Positions 31,029 through 55,073 of a stretch of 64,000 nt of DNA are shown here, in pieces (position 1 is the stretch's first letter; each line of letters starts with the position of its first letter). The translations under genes were made by a program, and so were the position numbers. The notes below the pieces were generated by a model. The model searched no databases. It worked only from the letters and a program-made list of their open reading frames with translations, and was not told the DNA's origin. This DNA comes from a virus, in IMG/VR virus record IMGVR_UViG_3300045988_183421; one strand, written 5' to 3'.

Positions 31029-31259
31029 ATGACATCGAACAGCAATACTGAAAGTGCGAGCGAACACGATATTTTTAGAACCTGTTATCAATGCCCACAT
31101 CGCAAAGCTGGATGTCATTCCGTATGCGAAGGCTATTCGGCTCGTGTTGCCAAACAGCAGGAGATATATAAAATGCGTTTGGCACAATGTGATGAATATG
31201 CATTCAAGAAAGAGGTCGCCAGCAAAGTGTCAAAGTATTGCAAATCCCATTGCAGATAA
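31029..31259 (+). CDS. Small Cys-rich protein of 76 aa, possibly metal-binding.
   Basis: RBS AGGGGGAG. Cys pairs in CYQCPHRKAGCHSVCEGY...CKSHC. Confidence 0.5.
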   Translation: MTSNSNTESASEHDIFRTCYQCPHRKAGCHSVCEGYSARVAKQQEIYKMRLAQCDEYAFKKEVASKVSKYCKSHCR

Positions 31260-31274
31260 GAAAAGGAGTATACC

Positions 31275-32809
31275 ATGTTTTTAGGAATCATCATTGTCGT
31301 ATTGTTTGTTTTGTTCGTATTCACATGCTACAAAAAAGCGCCTCCCACAGCAGCCATCGTTGTGACCGGATTCGGTTTAAAAAACCTAAGGTCGTTTGCG
31401 GAAAAGGTACATTCGTCATCCCCGTGCTGCAGCGTGCAGATAAGCTGAATATGCGTCTTCTGAAAATTGATGTCAAAACCCCTGAGACGGGTGTCAAGAC
31501 AAAAGAAGGCGTATCGCTCTGGATTGATTCTGTTGTAACGATTCAGGTATACAGCGATAATTCTACTGTTCTCGACTCTGAGGTTCAGGCATCTGGTGCA
31601 AAGGATGTCAAGGAATATATTACGGGTCGTCAGCAGTCGGCTATTTCGAACTTTCTTGGCATGGACGAAAAAGGCATCAATGACAAAGTAAATGATGTCT
31701 TGCAAGGCAACCTGCGCGAAATCGTTTCGGATATGACGGTTGACCAGATTCTCACAAATCGTAAACAAATGGCGCTGTCAGTAATCGAAAATGCCCGTCC
31801 TGACCTTGCAAAGATGGGCCTCGAAGTTGTAACCTTCAATGTGCAGGATGTAAAAGACGCCGTTGATGCGCAGGGTCACAATCACGGCGTCATTGAGGCT
31901 ATTGGTATTGAGCAGGAAGAAGCCGTTAAGAAACGTGCAGAGATTGCTCGTGCAGAAGCCGCTCGTGATATTGCTCGCGCAAAGGCTGACGCTGAAATGG
32001 CAGCCAATGAAAAGGAAGTTGAAGCCCAGACTGCTATTGCACAGCGCAACAATGAATTGCAGCTGGCAAAGGCCAAATTGAAGGCCGAGGCTGACAAGGC
32101 TGCTGCTGATGCCAACGCTGCAGGACAGATTCAGACAAATCTTCGCGCTAAGGAAATCAAGGAAGCCGAAGCTGATGCGGAAATTGCAAAGCAGAAGAAG
32201 ATGGTCGACCTTGCTGCACAGGAAGCCGAGGTTCAGCAGAGAAAACTGGATGCAGAGGTTCGCAAAGCTGCGGATGCCGAATTGTATAAACGCCAAAAAG
32301 AAGCAGAAGCAAAAAAATACGAAGCCGAACGCGCTGCTGAGGCTCAGAAATTTGCAAAGCAGCAGGAAGCCGAAGGTATTGCCCTTGTAGGTAAGGCAGA
32401 AGCTGAGGCTATCCGTCAGAAGGGTATTGCTGAAGCCGAAGCTATGAAGCAAAAGGCGGAAGCTTACAAGCAGTACAACGATGCTGCTGTTGCTGAAATG
32501 CTTATCAAGGTCCTGCCTGATATTGCTAAGAATGTGGCTCAGCCCTTGTCCGCAATCGATAAGGTATCTATCATCGGCGGCGATGCATCTGGCGTTTCCG
32601 GCGTGTCTGGGAATGTTCCCGTGCTGATGGCACAGACCATGCAGACCGTCAAGGAAGCTACCGGTATTGATATGGCCGATATCGTTCGTGCGAATAGTAT
32701 CAATGCTAAGACTGACCGCAATATCAACATTCACGGTTTGCCTGTAATCGAGAAGGCTGATGACAATGCACACATCGAACCTGACGAAAACGCAAGCGAT
32801 ATAAAATAA
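31275..32809 (+). pseudogene. Flotillin/SPFH (band-7, FloT/YqiK-like) gene interrupted by a frameshift in an A6 tract at 31379-31384.
   Basis: Frame 0 from ATG 31275 gives MFLGIIIVVLFVLFVFTCYKKAPPTAAIVVTGFGLKN and then a stop after 57 aa. Frame +2 continues as KKPKVVCGKGTFVIPVLQRADKL... through the SPFH domain and a long A/E/K coiled coil. One extra A would restore GLKKPKVVCGKG. Confidence 0.75.
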
Positions 32810-43165: not shown

Positions 43166-44152
43166 ATGAATGAGCATTATGTTATCGGTCAGGTACGCGC
43201 CATGTATGAAGGCAAGGAACGTGTTTTCGATGTCTATGATGATGGTACGGTAATTCTGCCTAACGGGGAACAGATGACGCTTGACGATTCCGTTGTGGAA
43301 ACGCTTCGCGCCGAATACAACAACGCAAAGTCTGCCAACAACAATGGCGCAAAAGGGCTGAATGTGAATGTCGGCCATAGAGAGACCAAAGCTTACGAAG
43401 TGCTTACAAAGACAAGCGATACACTGGATGAAGCAAACCAGACGCTTAAAGATACTAAGCATGCCAGTAAGGAAATCCTAGAACAGGCACAAATCATCAA
43501 AAACAATAACAAGCGTAATATCGGTATCGCAATGTTCATTGTTGCCGTTGTCGCCATCGCTATTGGCTTCTTCGTATACACAAACTGGGTCCAAATCAGT
43601 GGACAGCTTACCGGAGAATATAAAGTTGCTGTCGTAAATGTGGATATTCCTTCCGGGGATACCATCGAGGATTCAGAACTCAGCTATAAGACTTTGAGTG
43701 TCAACGAATACGAATCCTTATGCGGTTCGCATTTCGTAGACGGCGACGGGAAGATGCAGCAGGATACTCCCGTGTTCTTTGTGGATAGAACAGGTTCTAT
43801 CGTAAACAAGTTCGCGACCTCTGATATGAAGGCCGGAGATATTGTTATGACGTCTTCTGTATCTGCACAAAAAGCGTCACAGGATATGTATGTGGTTGAG
43901 ACCGAAGATAAGGATGGAAATCGTCAGAAGCAAACAATAGATGGCGCATTGCTTGCGGGGGATACGACCATTCAATATATCGCACGGGTAACTACTTCGT
44001 CTGGGGAGTCTTACGATGTCGTCTTGTCCAGCATTAAACTACGCGACAAGACAATCGAGGATGTTCTGAATGAGCAGGGTGCAAGCATTTTACAGTCTGC
44101 CAGTACGACAAACAGCGCAGATAAAGATTCTAACGTAGAAGGCGGTGAATAA
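43166..44152 (+). CDS. Single-pass membrane protein, hypothetical.
   Basis: RBS AAGGGG. Transmembrane segment IGIAMFIVAVVAIAIGFFVY. Confidence 0.55.
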   Translation: MNEHYVIGQVRAMYEGKERVFDVYDDGTVILPNGEQMTLDDSVVETLRAEYNNAKSANNNGAKGLNVNVGHRETKAYEVLTKTSDTLDEANQTLKDTKHASKEILEQAQIIKNNNKRNIGIAMFIVAVVAIAIGFFVYTNWVQISGQLTGEYKVAVVNVDIPSGDTIEDSELSYKTLSVNEYESLCGSHFVDGDGKMQQDTPVFFVDRTGSIVNKFATSDMKAGDIVMTSSVSAQKASQDMYVVETEDKDGNRQKQTIDGALLAGDTTIQYIARVTTSSGESYDVVLSSIKLRDKTIEDVLNEQGASILQSASTTNSADKDSNVEGGE

Positions 44153-44153
44153 A

Positions 44154-44828
44154 ATGTCTAAGATTTATCATCCGGATTGCAAATCTCTTATCACATCTAT
44201 GTATGTGAAGAATGGGCTTATCGCTATTCTGTTCTTGATTGCTTCTATTTTCGGTGTTGTTGTAATGCAGGAGTGGAAGATTCTTCTTATCGGCTTGATG
44301 TGCGCCGCTTATTTTATTTTTCAAATTTATGAGATTCATAATGATGAAAAAAATGAACGGTATAAGACTGTTAAGGGAATTGTTGTATCCGATGAGTCCA
44401 GCAAAAATATGATTCGCCAGCAGATTTCAACCTATCGAATCATCCCTGTCAATGAGGATGGAGAGTTTATCGACAAAAACGGAAAATACGATTTTTTCCT
44501 CAGCGTCAACGAATCAAAGAAAAACGTTAAAAACTCTTTCTTCGTTGGTGCTATGTATGACTTTATTTTTAAATCAAATGAGGATGGCGTAACTGCGTTT
44601 AATGACAGAAATCTCGTAACCTGCAGTCGTGTAACGACAGCCGTCAAAAACGATGATACTATTGTCCCCTCTGATACGCAGAAATCAGTACCTTCCATGA
44701 GTCCGTTGGAAGCGTACGATAAAGTCAAACAAGAAGCTGAAAAAGAAGTTATTGAACAAAAAAAGAAACACACAAAAGAAAATCTTGTCTTTTTGGACGG
44801 ATTTGGCGAAGGCGGTGATTCAAAGTGA
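44154..44828 (+). CDS. Membrane protein, hypothetical.
   Basis: Two N-terminal transmembrane helices ([17 protein letters not shown] and [13 protein letters not shown]). Confidence 0.5.
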
Positions 44829-46249
44829 ATAGCTTTGTATCATTCGTCTTGCTGATGCTCGTTCCGTATATTTTTTCTTTAAGCATTATCACCATAAATG
44901 CTAAGTACCTTACATTGCTTATTATTGCTGCGTATTGCATGGTAAACACGTGGTATTCTGAAAACTCCTTTACTTTTATGGGAAGGCGTGTTCATAAGCG
45001 CGGTATATTGGTGCGCGGTATTGTGCAGAACGTATGGCGCGGTGAAGATGATACCTATGTAGTAGATATCGCCGCAAAAGATTCTGACGGCATCGAAACG
45101 ATTATTGTTCCTGCGCGGTCTGTTGGAAATGAATTCTTACGTGCATTCTTGGCATCACAGAAGAATGGTGAATATTTTGATATTGCTGTAATTCAGTACA
45201 CAGACAGCTTAGGAGAAAAGACTTACGAGATACCTTGTGATTGGGCAACAAACGGCTTGTCAAGTGGTTTGTCTTATCACCCGCAGAAGGGGAGAGACAG
45301 TTTTATGCAAAACCGAAAAGACCAAGGAGATAAAACAGTATTTATCATGCGCGGTATCTGCGAGCTGCTGATTCCGGTGTCGTTTATCTGTTTTATTTTT
45401 GATGCAGGACTTGCTATTGTTTTACTGGTTGTTTCTCTGTGCGGTATTGTATGCTTTGTGCCGAGCCGCAAGTTGTCAAACCACAAATTTTGTGGTATAA
45501 TATTAGTAGAAAGAACGATTACTACTATTGAGAAGTGGTGGAATTCGAAATCTGACATGAATGTGCCTGCTGAGATAAAGGAAAGCGAAAATACCGCATC
45601 AGCAGAAAAAGAAAAGAAAGAAAAAACTGAGGCGATTCGCCGTGCAGTACAAAAGGCGGAGTCCGAAGAAAAGAAGTCTGAGGCCGTTGTAGCAATCGAT
45701 GGCCTTTTGCAGAAGGGAACTGCCAAGGTTCCAGTAAAGGAAGAATCTGTAGTGCAAGAAGAGCAAGGCTCAAACGCACAAGAGTCTTCTGCTTTGGAAT
45801 CAAAACAATCAGACAAAGATGATTTATCAAAAAACAAAAAGGTTCAGGAACCCGTCACAGAAACAAACAAGGATAAGGCTTCAGCGGATGCGGTTGTTGA
45901 TTCAAACACAGCAAGTGCAAAAACAAACGATGGTGGTTCCAATGAACCTGTAAAGTCAAAAAGAACTTCCAAAAAACGCCAAACAACCAAGAAAAGAGAA
46001 AAGAAACCAGCGTCCTCAAATTCTCAGTTGACATTTGATTTGCTTTCAGATGTTGCAAAAGAGGATGCACAAATCACCAATCCATCGGATAAGGTTCAGA
46101 ATGAAAAAGACGACGATTCCTCTGACGAAATCGAAAAAGTGGAGGATACCGACATCGAGGTCATTGAACCGCCGAAAGAACATGTAAATCGATTCGGGGA
46201 CTCTTTGATAAAGAAGAAACCCGATGATAACATCGTGGCAGAATATTGA
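44825..46249 (+). CDS. Membrane protein (N-terminal 220 aa) fused to a long acidic K/E/S-rich disordered tail. An intact promoter sits inside it at 45473-45501.
   Basis: Continuous ORF of 474 aa. The hydrophobic N-terminus gives way to low-complexity sequence. Confidence 0.5.
45473..45501 (+). promoter_or_regulatory. Promoter family B, copy 6, located inside the ORF (TTGTCA..TTTTGTGGTATAATATTAG).
   Basis: Perfect -35, 17-nt spacer with TGTGG extension, and -10 TATAAT. Confidence 0.5.
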
Positions 46250-46280
46250 TTCTGTCACTCCTTCCAAAGGAGGAGCCTGT

Positions 46281-46934
46281 ATGCCGAAGAAGTCTAATGC
46301 AGAAAAAGTATGGTCCAATAAACTCCCTAAGATACTCAAACCTGTTGGCTGTTCGTTTTCTGATGATGAATGGAACGACTTTTCCAGCTTTTTTCCTGTA
46401 AACGGATGGGATGCGTATCCTCCTGAACCCGATAAGACCGGTGAAATCATAAAAAAGCTATTAGAGAACAAGGCTAATAAGTACAAGAATATTGTTTCTC
46501 AAAATAAATGCCTTTTGTGCGGTGAAGTCACAGATGGTCTCTCTTCTCACTACCGCAAAGATTTAGGCTTATGCGTTGCCTGCTGCCAAAGCGTGTTCTA
46601 TGTGCGCCGCTGTAAGCGCAACCGCCTTGTAATAGACCCGGAAAACGGAAAAGAAATAAAGGAATGGGATAGAGATAAGACGCATGCAAAATGCGCCGTC
46701 TGCGGGAATGAAGGCATTTCTAATGTCGCGCTTTGCTTATGCAAGAAATGTTCTTCTCGCGCATCGAATCAACGTATCAGAAAAACTGTAGCAGATATCA
46801 AACCGGAAGAACTCGGCGTAAAGTATGTTACGAAACGCTATCAGGATTACGCTAAAGAGATGTTCCCGAACAGTCTGAAAGACACTTCGGAAATAAAACT
46901 TGTACGACAAGATATGGGATACGGTATTCGTTGA
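46281..46934 (+). CDS. Cys-rich (multi-CxxC) hypothetical protein.
   Basis: RBS AGGAGG. Motifs CLLCG, CVACC, CAVCG, CLCKKC. Confidence 0.55.
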   Translation: MPKKSNAEKVWSNKLPKILKPVGCSFSDDEWNDFSSFFPVNGWDAYPPEPDKTGEIIKKLLENKANKYKNIVSQNKCLLCGEVTDGLSSHYRKDLGLCVACCQSVFYVRRCKRNRLVIDPENGKEIKEWDRDKTHAKCAVCGNEGISNVALCLCKKCSSRASNQRIRKTVADIKPEELGVKYVTKRYQDYAKEMFPNSLKDTSEIKLVRQDMGYGIR

Positions 46935-47057
46935 CATTCTCCCCACGGCTAAAGCAGGGGGATTCCTGCATCAACCACCACTGCACAGCAACCGAGGTTG
47001 TTGCGTCTTACACGATGTCAGACAGGCGTTACTTCCCGTGTGTCCCACGGTACGGTA

Positions 47058-47296
47058 TGTATTAGTTTAAGCGGATTTTTCAAGTCCTTTACGCAAAATG
47101 TTAATGGCAGCGTTCTTGTCACGGTCATGAACCGTGTGACAAGACGGACATTCCCATTGACGGATGCTGAGGTTCTTAACAGCCACATTCTTATAACCGC
47201 AGCAACTGCATGTTTGGCTGCTTGGATAGAATGTATTGTCCACGCTATCGGAGAAAACTATTTCTTGTGGCTGGGTTTGAGGCTCGATTCAAGGAG
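47058..47296 (-). pseudogene. tnpB: C-terminal fragment of an IS605-family TnpB (zinc finger plus RuvC-III).
   Basis: Reverse-complement translation '..[54 protein letters not shown]'. Confidence 0.75.
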
Positions 47297-47574
47297 CTTG
47301 TGGCCCAAATCTGTGAGCAAAACGACATCGTGATATTGGCAATGGAATGTCATGTTGACCATTGTCATCTTTTCGTGAATGCTCCGCCTACATTAAGTGC
47401 TGCGGAAATCATGAAAATTTTAAAGGAACCACCGGAAGAATACTCAAGCAAGAGTTTTTCCCTGACACGGTTATGCAAATGTGGACTCGCAGCTACTTTG
47501 TAAGTACCGCTGGCGATGTGTCCAATGATACAATTCAACGCTATGTTGAAGAACAAAAAACGAGAGGAGGGTAA
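47210..47574 (+). pseudogene. tnpA: IS200-family TnpA (HUH Y1 transposase) with a frameshift at a TTTTAAAGG site (47419-47425). The N-terminal ~25 aa are missing.
   Basis: Frame a gives '[63 protein letters not shown]'. Frame b gives 'GTTGRILKQEFFPDTVMQMWTRSYFVSTAGDVSNDTIQRYVEEQ'. Confidence 0.75.
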
Positions 47575-47576
47575 TC

Positions 47577-49313
47577 ATGGCATTCGGGAGCAAAAACAGC
47601 ACACCGTCATTTGTGTTGACACTGCCGATGGTTATAGGTCTTAATGAACAAGACTATCTGAATAAAGAATTCAAGAAATGCGGCATTATCTATAATCAAC
47701 TTGTAAATGCGACCACAAAGATGTGGCATCAATTGCGTAAGACACGCAAGTATCGTGAACTAATGGCAGCTATTGCTAAAGCTGCTCCCGATAGCGATGA
47801 GCAGAAGGCACTTTTTAAGCAACGCGAGAAAATGCTTAAAGAGTACCGCTTCTCTGAGGATGCCTTTCATGCGATGGTCGTGCCCTATGCAAAGCACTAT
47901 GCTATCAATTCTCATGTAGCGCAGTCGATTGCTACTGCGGTTTGGACTGCGTGGTCATCTTTCTTTTTTGATAAAGGAAAGGAAGTCCACTACAAGAAAC
48001 TGGAATATGTTTCTTCAATATCAGGAAAAAATAATGCTACCGGAATAATGCTTCGTCCAGCAAATCACACCACAAGTGTTATCAATTCTGCCAAGACAAA
48101 AGCTAAAAACTCTATTGAGAAAAAATACTTTGCTGCGTACAGAAAACCAGACGCCAAAGAAGGCGAAGAAGTTGTTCTTCCCGACGAAGTAAAAGCACAA
48201 ATGGAAAAAGAGATTGCTGCTGCTACAGCAAAAGTCAAAACTTCCATTGGCAAAGGCAAGTTGCACATCACTTATGGGGATTATACATTCCCAGTGACAT
48301 TGCGAAATCCCGACACTCAAACGGGATGGTATCAACAGGAAGCGCTCAAATGCGGCGTTAAATACTGCCGTATAATTCGCAAATGGGTCAGCACCAAATG
48401 GAAGTATTATGCCCAAATTGTCCTTGAAGGCTATCCTCCCATTAAGTGTGACAACAACGGCGTTGCAAAACATCCTGTCAAACAGGGTCGTGTCGGTATA
48501 GATATCGGTACTCAAACTATTGCCTTTAGCGGTAAGGATGTTTGTGACCTTCGCGTGCTTGCTCCGGCTGCAAGAGCGCAGGCGAAAAGCCTTGTGAACG
48601 AAATCGCTTCTACGCTTCGTGCAATGGACCGTTCGCGCCGCGCTACGAATCCGAAATATTATAATCCGGATGGCACAATCAAAAGGTTAAAGCGGCAGCA
48701 TGGGCAAAAACAAAAGCGCAAGTGGAAATACAGCAAACGGTATTATCGCCTGCGTGCAAAACTGCGTAACCTGTACCGTAAATTAGCTGATATCCGCAAA
48801 ATGGAGCATAACATTCTCGCAAACGAATTGCTTACCCATGGCAATGAGTTCGTCGTTGAAGATATGAACTATAAAGCCCTGCAGAAGCGTAGTATAGAAA
48901 CAAAAATCAATTCAAAAACCGGCAGAGCACATACTAAAAAACGGTTTGGTAAATCGTTAAGTCGTTGTGCGCCTGCAATGTTTATCTCCATTCTGGGGAA
49001 AAAGGCAAACCGTTACGGAGGCAGTGTTATTAAGGTCAGCACCTTTGAAACAAAAGCCTCGCAATTTGACCATACAGACGAAAGTTATACCAAAAAGAAA
49101 CTATCTGAACGAATGGCTCGCCTCCGCAGCGGCGATATAGTTCAGCGCGACTTATATTCCGCCTTCCTGCTTGAACATATAGATACCGAATCTTTGCAGT
49201 ACAATATGGAAACCCTTAATTCAGCTTTTCCTGCATTTTTAGAAATGCACGAAAATACAAAGCGGCGCTTGCAGGCGGTTGGAAGCTCTCTTCCTGCAAG
49301 CATTGGATTCTAA
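47577..49313 (+). CDS. Large (578 aa) TnpB-like protein. It has a TnpB-type N-terminal WED region with insertions, and RuvC-I/II/III motifs, but lacks the zinc-finger cysteines.
   Basis: RBS GAGGAGG. Motifs 'GRVGIDIGTQTIAF', 'EFVVEDMNYKALQ' and 'IVQRDLYSAFLLEH'. The region where TnpB carries SQTCSxCG...CxxCG reads 'SQFDHTDESY...RLRSGD'. Confidence 0.7.
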   Translation: MAFGSKNSTPSFVLTLPMVIGLNEQDYLNKEFKKCGIIYNQLVNATTKMWHQLRKTRKYRELMAAIAKAAPDSDEQKALFKQREKMLKEYRFSEDAFHAMVVPYAKHYAINSHVAQSIATAVWTAWSSFFFDKGKEVHYKKLEYVSSISGKNNATGIMLRPANHTTSVINSAKTKAKNSIEKKYFAAYRKPDAKEGEEVVLPDEVKAQMEKEIAAATAKVKTSIGKGKLHITYGDYTFPVTLRNPDTQTGWYQQEALKCGVKYCRIIRKWVSTKWKYYAQIVLEGYPPIKCDNNGVAKHPVKQGRVGIDIGTQTIAFSGKDVCDLRVLAPAARAQAKSLVNEIASTLRAMDRSRRATNPKYYNPDGTIKRLKRQHGQKQKRKWKYSKRYYRLRAKLRNLYRKLADIRKMEHNILANELLTHGNEFVVEDMNYKALQKRSIETKINSKTGRAHTKKRFGKSLSRCAPAMFISILGKKANRYGGSVIKVSTFETKASQFDHTDESYTKKKLSERMARLRSGDIVQRDLYSAFLLEHIDTESLQYNMETLNSAFPAFLEMHENTKRRLQAVGSSLPASIGF

Positions 49314-49566
49314 ACAATAACTTTCTGGGGACTCGACACTTCCTCATTAAAGAGCTGCCTCGCAAGAGGTGAAACTCCCTTCGGAGGATGCACTTAAAAG
49401 AACTGGGAATGCAGACAAGTATGTTGGTCAACCTTTTAGGCTGGATGCTCGTTATACGCTACACCCGTAGCGTATGGTGGGAAACCGCATAACTCGCTGT
49501 TTCAGACACGGTTTGGCGATGAACCTTGCCGCGCCGCTCAGGAATCCCACGATTTCAATCGTGGGA
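49314..49566 (+). ncRNA. Highly structured non-coding region immediately 3' of the tnpB-like gene. It could be an omega-RNA (reRNA) scaffold or the IS right end.
   Basis: Hairpins CCTC-GCAA-GAGG, CTCC-CTTC-GGAG, GCTAC-accc-GTAGC and CCCACGA-tttcaa-TCGTGGG within 250 nt. No ORF. Confidence 0.4.
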
Positions 49567-50151
49567 GGTGTCAATATCGGAATAGAATTCTTTGAGTCCA
49601 ACATCAACGCCTACTACACAACCGTTGTTTGGTATAGGCTGAGGGTCATATTCCACATTAAGAACTACGAAATATTTACCGGTGGCTGTGCGTGCTACTG
49701 TTGCGTTGTGAATTGCGCCAATCTCCATAGACTGATGAACTTTTACCCAACCGATTTTCGGTAAGTGAATGCGCTTATTAGAAATGCGTATACCGTTATC
49801 AATATTGAGTGTGCGGTATGATTGTTTGGCGCTTTTTTTGCTTTTGAATTTTGGATGTGCAGCTCTATGCTCGAAAAAGTTTGTGTATCCGGCATCAAGG
49901 TTTCGCAGCGCTTGCTGCAAAGCAATGGAATCCACCTCTTTGAGAAACGCGTAGTTCACATCCTGCTTGAGCGCTGTCAGCATAGCAGAAGTTTGCTTGT
50001 AGCCGCACTTTTCCCCACCTTTGAAAGCGTCCTCCCGCATGGCAAGACCTTTATTGTAAATGAGTCTGCTGCAACCGAGAGTGCGGTCAATCAGATTGCG
50101 CTGCTCCCGGTTTGGGTAGATTCTAAATTTTACACCCTTTTGAAATGTCAT
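49555..50151 (-). pseudogene. tnpB: N-terminal fragment of an IS605-family TnpB (198 aa through RuvC-I). It is truncated at its 3' end.
   Basis: 'MTFQKGVKFRIYPNREQRNLIDRTLGCSRLIYNKGL...PKFKSKKSAKQSYRT...VVGVDVGLKEFYSD'. Confidence 0.8.
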
Positions 50152-50326
50152 CCCATTTTATCCTTTTGCCGTTGAGAAATTTTTTGATTTATTATATCAC
50201 AGCTCGCCATTCAATACTTGTGCAATTTGTAAACATTACAACTTAAGTTTCACTGCGCCTTATATTCCCATAGCTAAAACAAGGGGTTTTACGGCGCAAT
50301 CTGATAAGACACTTCTGATATTTTAC

Positions 50327-50355
50327 ATGCCCTGCTTTGGCAGGGCATTTTTTTA
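50327..50355 (+). terminator. Hairpin with a T-run (ATGCCCTGC-tttg-GCAGGGCAT TTTTTTT). It could be a terminator, an insulator or the IS left-end structure.
   Basis: 9-bp perfect stem followed by a T-run. Confidence 0.55.
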
Positions 50356-50368
50356 TTCGCAATTTGTA

Positions 50369-50397
50369 TTGACCACATTATATTTATGTGGTATAAT
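50369..50397 (+). promoter_or_regulatory. Promoter family B, copy 7 (TTGACC..TTATGTGGTATAATATAAAT).
   Basis: Consensus hexamers. Confidence 0.65.
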
Positions 50398-50444
50398 ATA
50401 AATATTCCAAGCGAAACATTGCTTTTTAGTCAAAGGAGAAATTT

Positions 50445-50960
50445 ATGAAGAAGAACATTCTGTCCGTTATTGGTGCCGCCACCGTTGCAGCCGTTGCCCT
50501 GAAACTCACGACCAAGTATGTGAAGAACGAGGTCATCAAAGAGTTGGAGGATGACGGTTATCTTTATGATGACGACGATTGTGATGACTGTGATGAGTGC
50601 TGCGGTTGTGATGAGCGCATCGATGATATTCATCACGCGCCCGTGGCTGCCGTTCATGTCATCCGCGTAGAACGCAAGCATGATGAGACGAAAAAGGATA
50701 CTGATAAGGCAACCGAGGCGAATCCTGATGCCGATAAGGATGAATCCGGCAAGGTGGATTCCGATAGCGCGTCCGAGGTCACTAAGGCCAAGGATGAATC
50801 CGCAGAGAAGCCTGTTGAAGAAAAGGCGGCGGAGGAAAAGAAGAATGAGCCTGATATCGTTGTTCCTGTAAAACAGCCCGCCAAGAAAGATGATGACAAG
50901 TCCGACTTGAACGTCCACGTTGATGAAATTATCGATTCTTTTTCTGGTCCCAACGCCTAA
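50445..50960 (+). CDS. Membrane-anchored acidic protein with a Cys/Asp cluster (DDDDCDDCDECCGCDE).
   Basis: RBS AAAGGAGAA. N-terminal transmembrane segment followed by an acidic low-complexity tail. Confidence 0.6.
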   Translation: MKKNILSVIGAATVAAVALKLTTKYVKNEVIKELEDDGYLYDDDDCDDCDECCGCDERIDDIHHAPVAAVHVIRVERKHDETKKDTDKATEANPDADKDESGKVDSDSASEVTKAKDESAEKPVEEKAAEEKKNEPDIVVPVKQPAKKDDDKSDLNVHVDEIIDSFSGPNA

Positions 50961-51004
50961 TCAATCATTATTTTAATTTTTTTACCATAAAGGAGACTTA
51001 AACC

Positions 51005-51694
51005 ATGAAAGATGCAGCAAAGAAATTCCGCAAGACCTGTGAGAAGTGCAACAAGCCGTTCAGCACCGCCAATGAGAGCGAGGTGCTGTGCCGCGAGTGT
51101 CGTATGCGTGACGATTTCGCAAAGCGCCGCGCAGAGGATGAAGCTCGCAAGGAAGCTGATGCAAAGAGCAATGAGGTGTTTGAGACCCGCAAGTGCGTTG
51201 ACTGCGGTCATGAATTCGACATCACCAATCGTGACCGCGATTTCTTCGAGAGCCACGGTTATTCTCTGCCGAACCGCTGCCCGGAATGCCGCAAGATTCA
51301 TCGCGACTTCGTGAAGCGCGGACTGGATAACATCGGTCTGGAAGACACTTGCGCAGATTGCGGTCAGAAGCTGCAGTTTACCAATCGCGAGCTGTACTGG
51401 TATGTTGTCCACGACTACAAGCTCCCCACCCGCTGCAAGGCTTGCCGTGAAAAGCGCAATGAGCACTTCGCAAAAATCGCAGCAAAGAAAGTGACTGCTG
51501 AGGGAGTCAAGGATGCGGTTATTGAAGCGCCCATCAATGAGTCGGTTGCAGAAGATGCCAATGTCCCCGCAATCACCGGGGATATCACTTCTCCCGCAGA
51601 GACTGTCACGGAAACTCCGGTAGAGGCCGCTGCCGAGACGGTTGCCGAGGCCGTCTCCAATACGACTCCTGACGCCAACGGCGCATCCGCTTAA
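51005..51694 (+). CDS. Protein with three CxxC...CxxC zinc-ribbon modules and an acidic tail.
   Basis: CEKCN..CRECR, CVDCG..CPECR and CADCG..CKACR. Confidence 0.6.
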   Translation: MKDAAKKFRKTCEKCNKPFSTANESEVLCRECRMRDDFAKRRAEDEARKEADAKSNEVFETRKCVDCGHEFDITNRDRDFFESHGYSLPNRCPECRKIHRDFVKRGLDNIGLEDTCADCGQKLQFTNRELYWYVVHDYKLPTRCKACREKRNEHFAKIAAKKVTAEGVKDAVIEAPINESVAEDANVPAITGDITSPAETVTETPVEAAAETVAEAVSNTTPDANGASA

Positions 51695-51969
51695 TGTCGT
51701 CTTTGCACAGTTTCTGTATCGAGCTTCTAATCGTATACGGATTCTGTATTGCAACATGGGCTTTGTTTCGAACTTTGTTTGTGCTTAATCGCAACAAAAT
51801 CAAGAAAAACCATGTTGACGGGGATTGCGACAGTAACAAAAAAGATGCTGCCGCAACAAATGTATTCGACGAAGGTATCGACAAACTCGATTGGTTCATG
51901 TGGCTTGCAACGAAGTTGGCCGTTGTAGCCTTTCTGATGCGAATCATCGTTGCTTTCTTTGCTCGATAA
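51694..51969 (+). CDS. Possible small membrane protein of 91 aa. No clear RBS.
   Basis: Two hydrophobic segments. Its frame avoids the codons TTA, CTA and TCA, as the neighbouring host-like genes do. Confidence 0.3.
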   Translation: MSSLHSFCIELLIVYGFCIATWALFRTLFVLNRNKIKKNHVDGDCDSNKKDAAATNVFDEGIDKLDWFMWLATKLAVVAFLMRIIVAFFAR

Positions 51970-51993
51970 TCTCAGTCGCGGAAGGAGTAAGCA

Positions 51994-53334
51994 TTGGACA
52001 ACATTAAAAATCCGGCGAAAAAGCCGAAACTCAAAAAGTCTTATTCGAACAGCACCATCTTTCAGAAGCTGATGGTGGATGATGTTCGCAACAAGATTCT
52101 CTTCACCATCCTTTGTCTTCTGATTTATCGTCTGGGTTGCGGTATTACGATTCCGTTCGTAAACACCGCTGCGCTTCAGACTATGTTCGGAAGCACCTCT
52201 GTACTGGATTATTACAATCTGGTTTCCGGTGGCGCACTTTCTCAGTGTGCGGTATTTGCGATTGGCGTATCTGCATACATCAACGCAAGCATCATCATCC
52301 AGCTTTTGACTGTTGCGATTCCGAAACTGGAAGAAATCAGCAAGGACATCGGCGGGCAGAAGCAAATCAATAAAATCACGCAGTATGTTGGCTGTGGTTT
52401 GGCGGCTGTAACAGCTATCGGGTACTTCTTTATTATGAAGAACTACGGTGCGATGAAATACACTTCCGGCATTTCGCAGGTCGTGGAAGCCATTACTGTT
52501 ATTGCCATTCTGACTGCTGGTTCTCAAATCGTCATCTGGCTTGGATGGCTGATTGACGAAAAAGGTATTGGCAACGGTATTTCCCTTATCATCTTTACCG
52601 GTATCATTTCCAGATGGGATGCTGTCATCTCGTTGTTCCAGAACTCTATTGCAATGGGCAAAGAAAATGGATGGTGGTATTACCTGATGATTCCCGGCGT
52701 CATCCTCTTTGTTTTGGCGGCCACCTTCTATGTCGTTTTCGCAAGCGATGCAGAGCGCCGCGTTCCTGTTCAGTATGCCGGTAAAAATGTAGGGAACAAA
52801 GCATCCACTGGTCAGTCCAGTTATATCCCCATCAAACTGATTATGTCGGGTGTTATGCCTATTATTTTCTCGTCCACCATTTGCAGTATGCCGTCTCTCG
52901 TGACGATGTTCCTCGATTACAACAAGCACCCCAGCCTGTATATGGCGCTGGCATCTTGGAATTCGCGGAATTGGATTTATGATGTTGCGTATGTGGCCCT
53001 GATTTTCGCATTCAACTTATTCTACATCGACATCACATTCGACCCCATCGAAATGGCAAACAATCTGCGCAAGAACGGCGGCAGTATCCCCGGTATTCGA
53101 GCAGGCAAAGCTACCAGTGATTATCTGCGCAATGCTTGCCATTCTCTCGCCGGTTCGGGAGCATTTGTTCTTTCGGTTATTGCATGTGTGCCTATCTTGG
53201 CAACTGCGGTTACAGGTCTGAACATGCACTTTGGCGGTACCAGTCTGTTGATTGTCACAGGTGTTACGCTTGAAGTTATCGATTCTCTTAACAGCCATTT
53301 GGTGGTTCGCCATCACAAGGGTTTCTTGAATTGA
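51994..53334 (+). CDS. secY2: SecY-family preprotein translocase subunit. It is a paralogue: it is not in a ribosomal-protein/adk context, so I call it SecY2-like.
   Basis: TTG start with RBS AAGGAG. 'DVRNKILFTILCLLIYRLGCGITIPFVN', 'GGALSQCAVFAIGVSAYINASIIIQLL' and the 'GNGISLIIFTGI' signature. Confidence 0.85.
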   Translation: MDNIKNPAKKPKLKKSYSNSTIFQKLMVDDVRNKILFTILCLLIYRLGCGITIPFVNTAALQTMFGSTSVLDYYNLVSGGALSQCAVFAIGVSAYINASIIIQLLTVAIPKLEEISKDIGGQKQINKITQYVGCGLAAVTAIGYFFIMKNYGAMKYTSGISQVVEAITVIAILTAGSQIVIWLGWLIDEKGIGNGISLIIFTGIISRWDAVISLFQNSIAMGKENGWWYYLMIPGVILFVLAATFYVVFASDAERRVPVQYAGKNVGNKASTGQSSYIPIKLIMSGVMPIIFSSTICSMPSLVTMFLDYNKHPSLYMALASWNSRNWIYDVAYVALIFAFNLFYIDITFDPIEMANNLRKNGGSIPGIRAGKATSDYLRNACHSLAGSGAFVLSVIACVPILATAVTGLNMHFGGTSLLIVTGVTLEVIDSLNSHLVVRHHKGFLN

Positions 53335-53349
53335 CGGGAGGGCAACACA

Positions 53350-53604
53350 ATGGCAATTTATGAAATCATTCTGTGCATCTTGATTCTGTTTGTTTCTGTT
53401 CTGGTTTGTGCGGTTACGCTTTCCATGGATAAGGCCGACAAGAACAGTCTTAGTGTTATCACCGGAATCAGTGATACAATGCGCTCGAATGCTAAAGACA
53501 GCACGAAAACGTCCGCAAATAAACTGGTTGCTGTATGTACAGCTATTCTGCTTGTTATCGCAATCATCATGTTCGTAGTAACCGGAGTAGGAGGTGCGGC
53601 ATGA
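53350..53604 (+). CDS. SecG-like small membrane protein of 84 aa.
   Basis: Two transmembrane helices flank an S/G/T-rich loop (LSMDKADKNSLSVITGISDTM), similar to SecG 'LLQSSKSAGLSGAISGG'. Confidence 0.4.
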   Translation: MAIYEIILCILILFVSVLVCAVTLSMDKADKNSLSVITGISDTMRSNAKDSTKTSANKLVAVCTAILLVIAIIMFVVTGVGGAA

Positions 53605-53852
53605 AAGATAAACTGAAAAAGGTAGGAACGGCTATTGCGAATTTCGTGAAGGCAATTCCTTCTTTCGTCAAGAGCACGCCTAAGAAGCTTCACAATTTGG
53701 TTGCACCCAAAAATGTGACTTGGCCGAGTATGCACAACACGCTCCATCGAACCGGAGCAGTTCTTGTTGTGAGTGCTGTATCCGCCGTTATTATTGGCAT
53801 TATGGATGCGGCATACGCTCTGTTGCTTCACGTTCCGTTCCTGTTCGTTTAA
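53601..53852 (+). CDS. SecE-like protein.
   Basis: 'KNVTWPSMHNTLHRTGAVLVVSAVSAVIIGIMDAAYALLL' matches the SecE 'KVSWPKGKELTRYTITVI..FALLD' pattern. Confidence 0.5.
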   Translation: MKDKLKKVGTAIANFVKAIPSFVKSTPKKLHNLVAPKNVTWPSMHNTLHRTGAVLVVSAVSAVIIGIMDAAYALLLHVPFLFV

Positions 53853-53858
53853 AATACT

Positions 53859-53895
53859 GCCCCGGTAGGCAACCTGTCTGCCGGGGTCTTTTTTA
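53859..53895 (+). terminator. Weak terminator.
   Basis: CCCCGG..CCGGGG stem followed by TCTTTTTT. Confidence 0.4.
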
Positions 53896-53909
53896 TAAAG
53901 GAGTTTTTT

Positions 53910-55073
53910 ATGAAAAAAAATGCAAAAGAGATTTTGGCAGTCATCAGTGCCGCATGTATTGCATTGACCGCGTGTGGCAAAAACGTGACCGATGCAAGTA
54001 CATCTGAGACTGCGGAAACAGCTACCTCTGAAACGGCTTCCGCTGTTGAGTATGACCTCGGTCTTGATGATGACGGGTATTTTCGTGATGTGACCGCGTC
54101 CAAATACATAAAGATGCCCAAGAATTATAAGGAATATACGGTCAGCAAAGATGTATACGCTGTTACGGACGAGGAGATTCAAAGTGAGTTGGATTATTTT
54201 CAGTCCAATTACAAGCTGACAACAGAGGTAACAGACCGCGCCGCACAGAAAGGCGATGTTGTGAACATTGACTATGAGGGTACGGTTGATGGTGTTGCTT
54301 TTACCGGTGGAACAACAGAAGACTACGATTTGGAACTCGGTTCCAATACCTTTATTGACGGATTTGAAGAGCAAATCGTCGGGCATAACACGGGGGATTC
54401 GTTTGACGTCACAGTAACATTCCCTGATGGATATAGCAGTACAACAGATAGAACCACAGGCGAGCAGACTATCGAGCTCGCCAACAAGGAAGCTGTTTTC
54501 CATGTAACGCTTAATAAGATTTCTCAATATAGCATGACAGATGCTGATGTTGCCGGTATCATGAGTGGCTACAAGCTGCAAGACGGCACTGCTGTAACTA
54601 CAGTAGACCTGCTTCGTGAATATGTTGAAGAGAATCTTCGTATGAATAAGATTCAGAATGAGATTGAACAGTATTTCATTGACAATGTAAAACTCAAAAA
54701 GGATACGACAGACCTTGTCAACCTGAGTCTTGAAACCAACTTGAAGTATGTCGAAAACGAAGCAACTGCCTACAATATGGACTTGGAGACATTCGTTCAG
54801 ACATACAGCAATTATAAGACCTCGGAGGAGTATTCAGAAAGTCTTCGTGGTCAGACGGAAGAAAATGTTTTACTGAGCCTTGTTGCGCAGTATCTGGCAG
54901 AGGAACAGGACTATAAACCGTCTGTCGATGAAGTGAAAGCTTATATTGGCAGTAACTACGATAACGCCGTTGATACCTATGGAGCAGGTCCTTTGGCACA
55001 GGAGTGTATGTATAACAAGATTATGGGCAACTACTGCATTGATGTGTACGAGCGGTCTGCCGCAGCTGAGTAA
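53910..55073 (+). CDS. Lipoprotein homologous to trigger factor. It has the FKBP-type PPIase and C-terminal chaperone domains but no ribosome-binding N-domain.
   Basis: RBS AAAGGAG. Lipobox in ISAACIALTACGKN. 'AAQKGDVVNIDYEGTVDGVAFTGGTTEDYDLELGSNTFIDGFEEQIVGHNTGDSFDVTVTFPDGY' is collinear with the TF PPIase domain. Confidence 0.7.
   Translation: MKKNAKEILAVISAACIALTACGKNVTDASTSETAETATSETASAVEYDLGLDDDGYFRDVTASKYIKMPKNYKEYTVSKDVYAVTDEEIQSELDYFQSNYKLTTEVTDRAAQKGDVVNIDYEGTVDGVAFTGGTTEDYDLELGSNTFIDGFEEQIVGHNTGDSFDVTVTFPDGYSSTTDRTTGEQTIELANKEAVFHVTLNKISQYSMTDADVAGIMSGYKLQDGTAVTTVDLLREYVEENLRMNKIQNEIEQYFIDNVKLKKDTTDLVNLSLETNLKYVENEATAYNMDLETFVQTYSNYKTSEEYSESLRGQTEENVLLSLVAQYLAEEQDYKPSVDEVKAYIGSNYDNAVDTYGAGPLAQECMYNKIMGNYCIDVYERSAAAE

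What the first reader, a model, noticed from the sequence alone, without database searches (positions are those of the whole stretch)
47577..49566. Intact 578-aa TnpB-like protein with RuvC triad but no zinc finger, followed by a 250-nt highly structured RNA-like region
The protein has a TnpB-type N-terminus (compare the fragment at 49555-50151) with about 100 aa of insertions, and RuvC-I (GIDIG), RuvC-II (VEDMN) and RuvC-III (QRDLYSAF) motifs. The CxxC...CxxC zinc-finger segment between RuvC-II and RuvC-III is replaced by SQFDHTDESY...RLRSGD, leaving one Cys. Immediately 3' lies a non-coding stretch packed with stable hairpins, including a GNRA-capped hairpin and a CCCACGA/TCGTGGG hairpin. 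That is the position where a TnpB omega-RNA scaffold and guide would be encoded. A larger, zinc-finger-less TnpB with its own RNA resembles intermediate forms on the path from TnpB to Cas12, and could be a compact RNA-guided nuclease.
Basis: partly seen in the sequence, partly recalled or inferred. Interest (0 to 1): 0.7.

Follow-up and report, generated by a model that had tools for sequence, protein, structure and literature searches.

The report
Zinc-finger-less TnpB in ISCbt1-like insertion sequence
This is a damaged copy of a common Firmicutes insertion sequence (IS200/IS605 family, ISCbt1-like) whose accessory TnpB-type nuclease lacks the usual zinc finger and is followed by its conserved guide-RNA scaffold; it belongs to a catalogued but untested branch of TnpB, not a new kind of system.

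Summary
ORF 47577-49313 encodes an intact 578-aa TnpB-fold protein with a conserved D309/E428/D525 RuvC triad and no CxxC...CxxC zinc finger. It is followed by a 261-nt structured non-coding region.

It is the accessory gene of an IS608-type IS200/IS605 element. Identical proteins lie on 23 other contigs, behind an intact 133-aa Y1 TnpA wherever the upstream DNA is present. Flank and empty-site comparisons fix the ends: TTAC|AAAATGAAGG...GGTGTCAA|, with the right end at 49574.

The CCCACGA/TCGTGGG hairpin is the TnpA-recognised right-end palindrome. The roughly 220 nt before it behave as an omega-RNA scaffold, with conserved modules and covariation.

The window copy is a remnant. It has no left end, and its tnpA is truncated and frameshifted. 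It sits inside a second, canonical TnpB gene.

The family is large, with more than 2,100 clusters at 50% identity in the representative library, and the genome loci found are mostly Bacillota. It includes ISCbt1 OrfB of Clostridium phage c-st and relatives on phages and plasmids. Loss of the zinc finger in large TnpB branches was reported in 2023.

No evidence links this clade to Cas12 origins. RNA-guided cleavage with a TTAC TAM is inferred, not shown.

Verdict: a new member of a known kind, of modest interest.

The parts
47236..47574 (+). Remnant of the Y1 (HUH) transposase gene tnpA. It lacks its first 62 nt and the whole left end, and carries a 1-nt deletion near 47419/47420 that shifts the frame.
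   Evidence: Pfam Y1_Tnp and NCBIfam transpos_IS200 hit two overlapping frames. The alignment to the intact 133-aa tnpA of L001 shows the truncation point and the missing A. BLASTN homology to complete copies starts at 47236.
47577..49313 (+). Intact 578-aa zinc-finger-less TnpB-like gene. RuvC-I D309 is at 48501-48503, RuvC-II E428 at 48858-48860 and RuvC-III D525 at 49149-49151. The degenerate zinc-ribbon segment, residues 494-522, is at 49056-49142.
   Evidence: ORF. NCBIfam guided_TnpB scores 66 bits, below the cutoff of 100. hhalign to a canonical 367-aa TnpB gives probability 96% with all three RuvC motifs aligned. AF2 pLDDT is 91.9. Foldseek finds ISFba1 TnpB at E = 7e-12. D309, E428 and D525 are conserved in at least 90% of 64 family members, and no Cys pairs occur in any member. 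dN/dS is 0.075 against an 83%-identical copy.
49314..49574 (+). Right-end region, the predicted omega-RNA scaffold. P1 hairpin: GGGGA (49327-49331) / TCCTC (49341-49345), loop CTCGACACT. P2 GNRA hairpin: 49358-49369. Conserved GTGAAAC: 49369-49375. P3 hairpin: about 49375-49387. Central helices follow. A long-range helix joins 49312-49316 with about 49501-49505.
   Evidence: Identical in position and more than 98% identical in 10 independent loci. Conserved modules recur in copies whose proteins are 58-83% identical. The GTGAAA(C/G) motif lies 55-73 nt after the stop codon in the window subgroup and about 15 ISCbt1-type loci, and further out in a few others. Pair counts: A9 is 91.5% paired against 41-47% for slid controls. 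The sister subgroup A7 is 93.6% paired against 36-47%, with 23 pairs changed on both sides.
49542..49574 (+). TnpA recognition and cleavage module of the right end. GAAT is at 49542-49545 (the position of the IS608 G_R guide sequence), the palindrome CCCACGA-TTTCAA-TCGTGGG at 49546-49565, AGGTG at 49566-49570, and the cleavage tetranucleotide TCAA at 49571-49574.
   Evidence: All copies diverge from their flanks exactly after TCAA. The left end of complete copies has the matching hairpin CCCACGG-TTTTAA-CCGTGGG, preceded by AAAG and lying 19 nt from the flanking TTAC. This matches the IS608 layout (PMC3201880). The same terminal 33 nt lie downstream of a canonical TnpB gene in L003.
49575..49590 (+). 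Predicted guide portion of the omega-RNA: flank TATCGGAATAGAATTC, the antisense strand of the interrupted neighbouring tnpB.
   Evidence: L010 carries the uninterrupted target TTAC|TATCGGAATAGAAT at 3125-3142. The guide length and its use are inferred from the ISDra2/OMEGA paradigm (PMC13565253).
49575..50151 (-). N-terminal part (about 192 codons) of a second, canonical IS200/IS605 TnpB gene into which the element inserted.
   Evidence: NCBIfam IS200_TnpB, E = 9e-62, profile positions 1-189 of 360. It is 99.2% identical to the intact 367-aa gene of L010.
46931..47235 (-). C-terminal fragment, with an intact CxxC...CxxC zinc finger, plus the right end of the canonical TnpB element. It includes an unoccupied TTAC|TTCCCGTG target site at 47029-47032.
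   Evidence: NCBIfam IS200_TnpB profile positions 310-360 of 360. It is 88.8% identical to L010 2560-2773. A weak R1/nhmmer match covers 46931-47059 (-). The inverted repeat I2 with the inner right end supports the assignment. In L010 the element sits exactly at this TTAC.

Best explanation
Window 47236-49574 is a 5'-truncated copy of an IS608-type IS200/IS605 insertion sequence of the ISCbt1-like group. A complete copy reads: TTAC target | left end with hairpin | tnpA (Y1 HUH transposase, 133 aa) | tnpB-like gene (578 aa) | about 260-nt right end | TCAA.

Inferred mechanism: TnpA excises and inserts the top strand as single-stranded DNA, 3' of TTAC. It uses the two subterminal hairpins and the AAAG/GAAT guide tetranucleotides. 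The 578-aa protein is a TnpB-type RuvC nuclease whose zinc ribbon has lost its cysteines, probably keeping the fold. It binds an omega-RNA made from the 3' untranslated region, likely processed from its own mRNA. That RNA reads through the right end into 16-20 nt of flank. The complex would then cut TTAC-flanked empty donor sites so that the element is restored by recombination.

Shown here: homology, fold, conservation of the catalytic triad, the ends, the target site, mobility, purifying selection, and a conserved RNA structure. Inferred: transcription and processing of the RNA, and RNA-guided cleavage with a TTAC TAM.

This particular copy cannot transpose, because it has no left end and tnpA is dead. 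Its TnpB gene and RNA scaffold are intact.
For: An identical protein occurs on 23 contigs, in at least 6 different contexts among the 10 places shown. An intact Y1 tnpA lies directly upstream wherever that DNA is present. The ends are defined by flank divergence. They are confirmed by reciprocal empty sites: L010 3125-3142, and window 47029-47032. The flank immediately 5' of the left end reads TTAC in five loci (L001, L003, L004, L008, L010; four distinct insertion contexts), and TTAC also precedes both empty sites. It lies 19 nt from the left hairpin with AAAG at the hairpin foot, as in IS608 (PMC3201880). hhalign to a canonical TnpB gives probability 96% with the RuvC I/II/III motifs in register. 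The AF2 model has pLDDT 91.9. Foldseek's top hits are TnpB, Cas12f and Cas12m at E = 1e-9 to 7e-12. D309, E428 and D525 are conserved in at least 90% of 64 diverse members. dN/dS is 0.075. The protein aligns over its full length to ISCbt1 OrfB at E = 2e-83. A Y1 tnpA lies in 33 of 80 genome loci of the family, directly upstream on the same strand in nearly all of them. RNA evidence: including many G-U pairs that work only on the tnpB-sense strand. No terminator-like site lies on the + strand between the stop codon and the right end.
Against: No expression or cleavage data exist for any member of this clade, as far as the searched literature shows. The protein scores below the curated TnpB cutoffs: NCBIfam 66 against 100, and Pfam OrfB_IS605 E = 0.022. 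The zinc finger, present in all experimentally characterised TnpBs that I know of, is absent. Covariation within the window's own subgroup rests on few divergent sequences (L098, L115-L117), and those alignments were fitted to the model. The high conservation of the 3' region against L094 could partly reflect recombination, since identity already rises within the last 400 nt of the ORF. The window copy is a remnant, so a function at this locus is not assured.
Confidence: 0.8

Rival explanations
1. The 3' region is only the DNA-level right end of the transposon (TnpA binding and cleavage signals). It is not an RNA, and the protein acts without a guide or has another role.
For: The terminal hairpin, GAAT and TCAA are clearly TnpA signals. 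They have a counterpart at the left end, and the same terminal 33 nt follow a canonical-TnpB gene in L003. No Rfam family matches.
Against: Full-length IS608 right-end substrates in vitro are only about 45-56 nt (RE56/RE45, PMC3201880). Here a further 220 nt or so upstream are conserved, with covarying helices and frequent G-U pairs that would be C-A mismatches on the other strand. A conserved GTGAAA(C/G) motif recurs after the stop codon across distant members, 55-73 nt downstream in most. Every characterised TnpB uses such an RNA (PMC13565253).
Confidence: 0.1
2. The protein is a domesticated or nuclease-dead TnpB derivative, an RNA-guided DNA binder or regulator like TldR or Cas12m, rather than a cutter. 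Loss of the zinc finger would mark that change of function.
For: The zinc finger is absent in all members. Cas12m2, a DNA binder, is among the top structural matches. Exapted TnpBs are known (PMC10705468, PMC10691335).
Against: The D-E-D triad is at least 90% conserved, and RuvC-III keeps the typical-clade xRDxxxAxxI pattern. The gene is mobile, multicopy and linked to tnpA rather than to a fixed host gene. Described dead derivatives lose catalytic residues and mobility (PMC10691335).
Confidence: 0.1
3. At this locus the whole thing is inert debris: a decaying insertion-sequence fragment with an ORF that is open only because the damage is recent.
For: The left end is missing, and tnpA is truncated and frameshifted. 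The host tnpB gene is split and has lost about 355 bp. There is only one copy in the window.
Against: The 578-aa ORF is 100% identical to that of complete elements. The 4 substitutions in the RNA region preserve or improve pairing (reading of the sequence). TnpB and its RNA can act in trans on matching sites. This rival concerns the state of the copy, not the nature of the element, and is compatible with the best explanation.
Confidence: 0.3

Closest known systems
ISCbt1 (IS200/IS605 family; OrfA + OrfB, CST007/CST008 of Clostridium botulinum phage c-st), with pXO1-20-like ORFs and relatives on C. botulinum, C. difficile and B. cereus group plasmids and phages
   Same: Same gene order: a Y1 tnpA followed by a large zinc-finger-less tnpB. 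The proteins are homologous over their full length (32% identity, E = 2e-83). The ASQxxH...QRDLYSAF signature is shared. The 3' region has the same plan: P1 hairpin, P2 stem, GTGAAA(C/G), a terminal hairpin, then TCA(A/G).
   Different: The window protein is 85 aa longer, with a helical insertion around residues 123-230. Its RNA region is about 260 nt against about 170-190 nt. Its right end finishes in TCAA rather than TCAG. The central RNA helices differ: a local P3 hairpin replaces a long-range helix.
IS608 (ISHp608) of Helicobacter pylori
   Same: Insertion occurs 3' of TTAC, which lies 19 nt from the left hairpin. AAAG sits at the foot of the left hairpin. The right end finishes in TCAA a few nt after the right hairpin. 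There are no inverted terminal repeats and no target duplication (PMC3201880).
   Different: IS608 TnpB belongs to the typical small TnpB clade (300-450 aa per PMC10691335), which has the C4 zinc finger. Here the protein is 578 aa without it. The hairpin sequences differ.
ISDra2 / ISFba1 TnpB-omegaRNA (solved structures 8h1j, 8exa, 8iaz)
   Same: Same overall fold: Foldseek E = 7e-12 to 6e-8, target-normalised TM 0.63-0.73. The RuvC triad is in register. A structured RNA is encoded at the 3' end and runs into the flank.
   Different: Sequence similarity is barely detectable (phmmer E = 0.45). The zinc finger is absent. Insertions add about 170-200 residues (in the WED-like region, after RuvC-I, a lid after RuvC-II, and a C-terminal helix). 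The TAM would be TTAC rather than TTGAT.
TnpB branches without a C4 zinc finger in the Altae-Tran et al. 2023 classification (e.g. RIIIr-4)
   Same: The zinc finger is lost across a whole large branch that is still predicted to be active. The family occurs on phages and plasmids (PMC10691335).
   Different: RIIIr-4 has the RuvC-III Asp replaced by His. Here D525 is retained in an xRDxxxAxxI context, so the family is not RIIIr-4. I could not tell which named branch it corresponds to, because the supplement is not held.

Membership tests
IS200/IS605 insertion sequences (IS608 type) | A Y1 HUH transposase (TnpA) is encoded in the element | tested here: met
   Complete copies have an intact 133-aa Y1_Tnp gene ending 2 nt before the tnpB start codon. 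The window copy keeps only a truncated, frameshifted remnant.
IS200/IS605 insertion sequences (IS608 type) | Subterminal hairpins at both ends, with no terminal inverted repeats | tested here: met
   Left end CCCACGG-TTTTAA-CCGTGGG and right end CCCACGA-TTTCAA-TCGTGGG lie on the same strand. The window lacks the left end.
IS200/IS605 insertion sequences (IS608 type) | Insertion 3' of a fixed tetra- or pentanucleotide, without target duplication | tested here: met
   The flank next to the left end reads TTAC in five loci (four distinct contexts). Two reciprocal empty sites, also preceded by TTAC, show no duplication.
TnpB (OMEGA RNA-guided nuclease) | Split RuvC domain with a conserved D-E-D triad in a TnpB/Cas12f-like fold | tested here: met
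TnpB (OMEGA RNA-guided nuclease) | C4 zinc finger (TNB domain) between RuvC-II and RuvC-III | tested here: not met
   No CxxC pair occurs in any of 64 members. The first pair is deleted and the second replaced. This feature is not universal: it is lost in some large TnpB branches (PMC10691335).
TnpB (OMEGA RNA-guided nuclease) | Score above the curated family thresholds (NCBIfam guided_TnpB, Pfam OrfB_IS605 / Cas12f1-like_TNB) | tested here: not met
   66.2 bits against a cutoff of 100, 15.4 against 30.5, and 12.9 against 26.3. The protein is a divergent member that current models do not capture.
TnpB (OMEGA RNA-guided nuclease) | Structured omega-RNA encoded at the 3' end or right end, with the guide outside the element | tested here: inconclusive
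   A conserved, covarying structure lies in the right place. Its expression, its ends and its binding to the protein cannot be tested with these tools.
TnpB (OMEGA RNA-guided nuclease) | RNA-guided, TAM-dependent DNA cleavage | not testable with these tools
   This needs biochemical or interference assays. A TTAC TAM is predicted from the target site.
Cas12 (type V CRISPR effector) | Association with a CRISPR array or cas genes | tested here: not met
   No repeat array lies in 44000-53000. No cas genes appear in any of the 10 contexts. The gene is always linked to tnpA and transposon ends.

The most novel reading that the evidence does not exclude
The ISCbt1-type zinc-finger-less TnpBs would be an active, experimentally untouched class of RNA-guided DNA nucleases. 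The family has more than 2,100 clusters at 50% identity, mostly in Bacillota and their phages and plasmids. It would have its own omega-RNA architecture (P1 hairpin, P2 stem followed by GUGAAAS, right-end hairpin) and a short TTAC TAM. That would show the zinc ribbon to be dispensable for TnpB function and would offer a new scaffold for compact genome editors.
Probability: 0.6. Interest if true: 0.45.

Novelty: new member of a known kind. Interest (0 to 1): 0.3.

Why it matters
If active, this clade would show that a TnpB can work without its zinc finger, and it would add a roughly 500-580-aa nuclease with a simple TTAC TAM to the editing toolbox. Current Pfam and NCBIfam models miss the family, so thousands of copies are labelled 'hypothetical protein' or plain 'transposase'. 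A dedicated protein model and an RNA model would correct the annotation of many Firmicutes genomes, phages and plasmids. For this locus, the result is mainly a clean example of nested insertion sequences and of transposon decay.

Tried and rejected
- Rfam, at permissive and gathering thresholds: no family covers the 3' region.
- phmmer against PDB sequences: only E of about 0.45 to ISDra2 TnpB. Structure prediction was needed.
- Covariance model R1, built from the window subgroup, searched over 80 distant genome loci: it recovered mostly just the terminal hairpin. The central RNA is too diverged for one model, so I analysed the ISCbt1-like subgroup separately.
- Assignment to branch RIIIr-4 of Altae-Tran 2023, which lacks the zinc finger: rejected, because that branch has Asp-to-His at RuvC-III and this family keeps D525.
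- Supplement of that paper, to name the branch: not held.
- Literature search for 'ISCbt1': one irrelevant hit.
- CRISPR-array or Cas12 reading: rejected.
- Other copies or stand-alone RNA copies in the window: none.
- L014, the closest genome relative at 93% identity: its element has lost the last roughly 100 nt of the right end, so it was not usable for the RNA analysis.
- Metagenome scan with P0123: only 3 loci.
Full report
**1. The observation**

ORF 47577-49313 (+) is intact and encodes 578 aa. GIDIG starts at residue 307, VEDMN at 427 and QRDLYSAF at 523. SQFDH (495) and RLRSGD (515) lie between them. The only Cys between RuvC-II and RuvC-III is C464.

The 261 nt after the stop codon contain two hairpins:
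- CCTC-GCAA-GAGG (49358-49369)
- CCCACGA-TTTCAA-TCGTGGG (49546-49565)

As RNA the region folds to -87.2 kcal/mol. That is 2.7 sd better than dinucleotide shuffles. The description is therefore accurate. The true 3' boundary is 49574, not 49566.

**2. What the protein is**

Curated models barely see it:
- NCBIfam guided_TnpB scores 66 bits against a cutoff of 100.
- Pfam OrfB_IS605 gives E = 0.022.
- phmmer against PDB sequences gives E = 0.45 to ISDra2 TnpB.

More sensitive methods are clear. A profile of 64 family members aligns to a canonical 367-aa TnpB with 96% probability, and the motifs pair up as follows:

| Motif | This family | Canonical TnpB |
|---|---|---|
| RuvC-I | GIDIG | GIDVG |
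| RuvC-II | VEDMN | IEDLN |
| RuvC-III | QRDLYSAF | NRDKNAAV |

The segment ASQ------FDH...KKLSERMARLRSGDIVQRD lies opposite [10 protein letters not shown]...[20 protein letters not shown]. The first CxxC is deleted and the second is replaced.

An AlphaFold2 model has mean pLDDT 91.9. Its best Foldseek matches are ISFba1 TnpB (E = 7e-12, target-normalised TM 0.73), Cas12m2, AsCas12f, Cas12p and ISDra2 TnpB. In the model the former zinc-finger segment still forms short beta strands (residues 513-515 and 521-523). This suggests, tentatively, a zinc ribbon that has lost its metal ligands.

The extra length comes from four places:
- a helical insertion around residues 123-230, absent from ISCbt1 OrfB
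- an insertion after RuvC-I, around residues 358-386
- a lid after RuvC-II, around residues 432-457
- a C-terminal helix

**3. The family**

An exhaustive search of cluster representatives found 2,144 clusters at 50% identity with E <= 1e-3, and 557 with E <= 1e-30. Most members are 480-570 aa.

In 64 diverse members D309, E428 and D525 are at least 90% conserved. None has the Cys pairs. The consensus is KASQYNH..Y.KK.LS.RW....G..QRDLYSAFLI.

More than 561 loci occur in species-representative genomes, mostly Bacillota. A Y1 tnpA lies in 33 of the 80 retrieved, directly upstream in nearly all of them.

Annotated relatives include:
- the 'putative IS transposase (OrfB)' of ISCbt1 in Clostridium phage c-st, whose depositors already noted similarity to pXO1-20 of B. 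anthracis
- genes in Geobacillus virus E3, phiCD211 and AR1086-1 (labelled 'ISCbt1')
- genes on 143 plasmids, including 98 Bacillus and 19 Clostridium records

BLASTP to ISCbt1 OrfB covers the full length at E = 2e-83. PHROG 506 'transposase' matches at 8e-38.

Altae-Tran et al. [quoted passage not shown] Their ZF-less clade RIIIr-4 has Asp-to-His at RuvC-III, which is not the case here (PMC10691335).

**4. The element and its ends**

The identical 578-aa protein lies on 23 other contigs, in at least six different contexts among the ten places shown. These include phage-like, plasmid-like (Rep3/ParA/ParB) and chromosomal-looking settings. Wherever the upstream DNA is present, it sits 2 nt downstream of an intact 133-aa Y1 tnpA.

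Flanks diverge exactly before AAAATGAAGGCCGAG... and exactly after ...GGGAGGTGTCAA. The flank next to the left end reads TTAC in five loci, representing four distinct insertion contexts.

Two reciprocal empty sites prove the ends and the mobility:
- L010 carries the uninterrupted TTAC|TATCGGAATAGAAT (3125-3142). This is the site occupied in the window, where the junction reads TCAA|TATCGGAATAG at 49574|49575.
- The window carries the uninterrupted TTAC|TTCCCGTGTG (47029-47032). This is the site occupied in L010.

The left hairpin CCCACGG-TTTTAA-CCGTGGG starts 19 nt from TTAC and is preceded by AAAG. The right hairpin is preceded by GAAT and followed by AGGTG-TCAA.

IS608 has TTAC 19 nt from IP_L, G_L = AAAG, and TCAA just 3' of IP_R (PMC3201880). 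That G_R of IS608 is GAAT is my recollection; it was not found in the held text.

The same terminal 33 nt (94% identical) lie downstream of a canonical 388-aa TnpB gene in L003. The canonical element in the window (46942-46968, minus strand) has a related GGAAT-hairpin end.

**5. State of the window copy**

Homology to complete copies begins at 47236. The left end and the first 62 nt of tnpA are gone. A 1-nt deletion near 47419/47420 shifts the remaining frame.

The element inserted into a canonical IS200/IS605 tnpB on the opposite strand. Two fragments of that gene remain:
- an N-terminal fragment at 49575-50151
- a C-terminal fragment with an intact zinc finger at 47067-47235

About 355 bp of that gene are also missing. 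A single deletion across the left junction explains the layout.

The copy is thus immobile. Its tnpB is nevertheless 100% identical to that of complete elements. Its RNA region differs from the consensus at 4 positions, at least three of which keep or improve pairing (my reading of the helices).

**6. The RNA**

Several lines indicate a functional sense-strand RNA, not just a DNA end.

(a) Constraint. Against an element whose protein is 83% identical (L094), dS is 1.45 and third codon positions are 57% identical. The 261-nt region is 96% identical. dN/dS of the gene is 0.075. One caveat applies: identity already rises over the last roughly 400 nt of the ORF. This could mean that the RNA overlaps the ORF, or that recombination has occurred.

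(b) Shared modules. These recur in elements with 58-72% protein identity (L098, L112, L114), with compensatory changes:
- P1, a hairpin with loop YCGACRY
- P2, a hairpin followed immediately by GTGAAAC
- P3, a local hairpin: CUCC/GGAG, CUCCC/GGGAG or CCCUU/AAGGG
- the terminal hairpin: CCCACGA/UCGUGGG or CCCACUCC/GGGGUGGG

(c) A conserved motif. GTGAAA(C/G) lies 55-73 nt after the stop codon in the window subgroup and in about 15 distant ISCbt1-type loci, including ISCbt1 itself. In a few others (L021, L030, L042, L093) it lies 79-99 nt out.

(d) Covariation in the sister subgroup. In 15 ISCbt1-like sequences the RNAalifold structure is 93.6% paired, against 36-47% for slid controls. It has 23 of 37 pairs with changes on both sides (controls 6-11). 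The covariation score is 0.435, against 0.08 or less. Several positions are near-invariant G-U pairs.

(e) Covariation in the window subgroup. Adding three independent sequences (L115-L117) gives 91.5% paired, against 41-47% for controls. A long-range helix joins the nucleotides right after the stop codon to about 49501-49505, and 4 of its 5 pairs are changed on both sides. The caveats are few divergent sequences and a model-fitted alignment.

No terminator-like site lies on the + strand between the stop codon and the right end, and no promoter-like site lies inside the region. This fits processing from the tnpB mRNA, as described for ISDra2 (PMC10278001).

**7. Mechanism and comparison**

The best-supported reading is an OMEGA-type system. 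TnpA moves the top strand by peel-and-paste, inserting 3' of TTAC. The zinc-finger-less TnpB, loaded with the right-end RNA that reads into the flank, would cut TTAC-plus-flank empty sites and so favour retention of the element (PMC13565253). Cleavage, TAM and RNA ends are inferred.

The 'intermediate towards Cas12' idea has no support. There is no array and no cas genes. The best-covered structural match is a TnpB.

**8. Verdict**

This is a new, and here decayed, member of a known kind: an ISCbt1-like IS200/IS605 element with a ZF-less TnpB. The points of interest are that the clade is large, missed by current models, and experimentally untested.

Noticed in passing
window 46931-47235 (-) and 49575-50300 (-): A second, canonical IS200/IS605 element (a TnpB of about 367 aa with an intact zinc finger) is split by the inner element. 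It has lost about 355 bp. Its C-terminal fragment is only 88.8% identical to the intact copy in L010, while its N-terminal part is 99.2% identical. This suggests the two halves may derive from different copies, by recombination.
   Followed up: partly
L010 2565-2600 versus window 47029-47040: In another assembly the same element sits at a different TTAC, only about 560 bp away, inside the right end of the same neighbouring canonical element. That makes two independent insertions into one host insertion sequence. The two element types also share GGAAT-hairpin right-end signals, so one TnpA may mobilise both.
   Followed up: partly
window 7-19680 (+) and 20045-28051 (+): Two giant ORFs of at least 6,557 aa and 2,668 aa. 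The first possibly runs off the window start. Its C-terminal part has about 11 DUF11/DUF7507 repeats, and the second has 6 MBG domains. They are probably giant surface proteins.
   Followed up: partly
window 51994-55073 (+); L002 10418-13497: SecY (446 aa), a small ORF, SecE and an FKBP/trigger-factor-like protein lie together, away from ribosomal genes. They are near the giant ORFs and a flotillin/SPFH gene (31238-32809). This may be an accessory secretion module for the giant proteins.
   Followed up: no
window 47577-49574 versus L094 1501-3498: Nucleotide identity between two copies climbs from about 67-70% in the middle of tnpB to 91-95% in its last 250 nt, and to 96% in the RNA region. 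Either the RNA begins inside the ORF, or the 3' module has been exchanged by recombination.
   Followed up: partly
L014 4400-4560: The closest genome-collection relative (93% protein identity, Clostridiales MAG HRGM_Genome_2451) has lost the last roughly 100 nt of the right end, including the hairpin and TCAA. It is another decayed copy.
   Followed up: partly
L099-L110 (IMG/VR) and L007: The element occurs on contigs classed as viral, up to 172 kb. It also occurs next to Rep3/ParA/ParB plasmid genes, so it travels on phages and plasmids as well as chromosomes.
   Followed up: no
L112 707-2445: A 72%-identical relative has its tnpB-like gene split into 165-aa and 414-aa ORFs, apparently by a frameshift, yet keeps a complete 3' RNA region and right end.
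   Followed up: no
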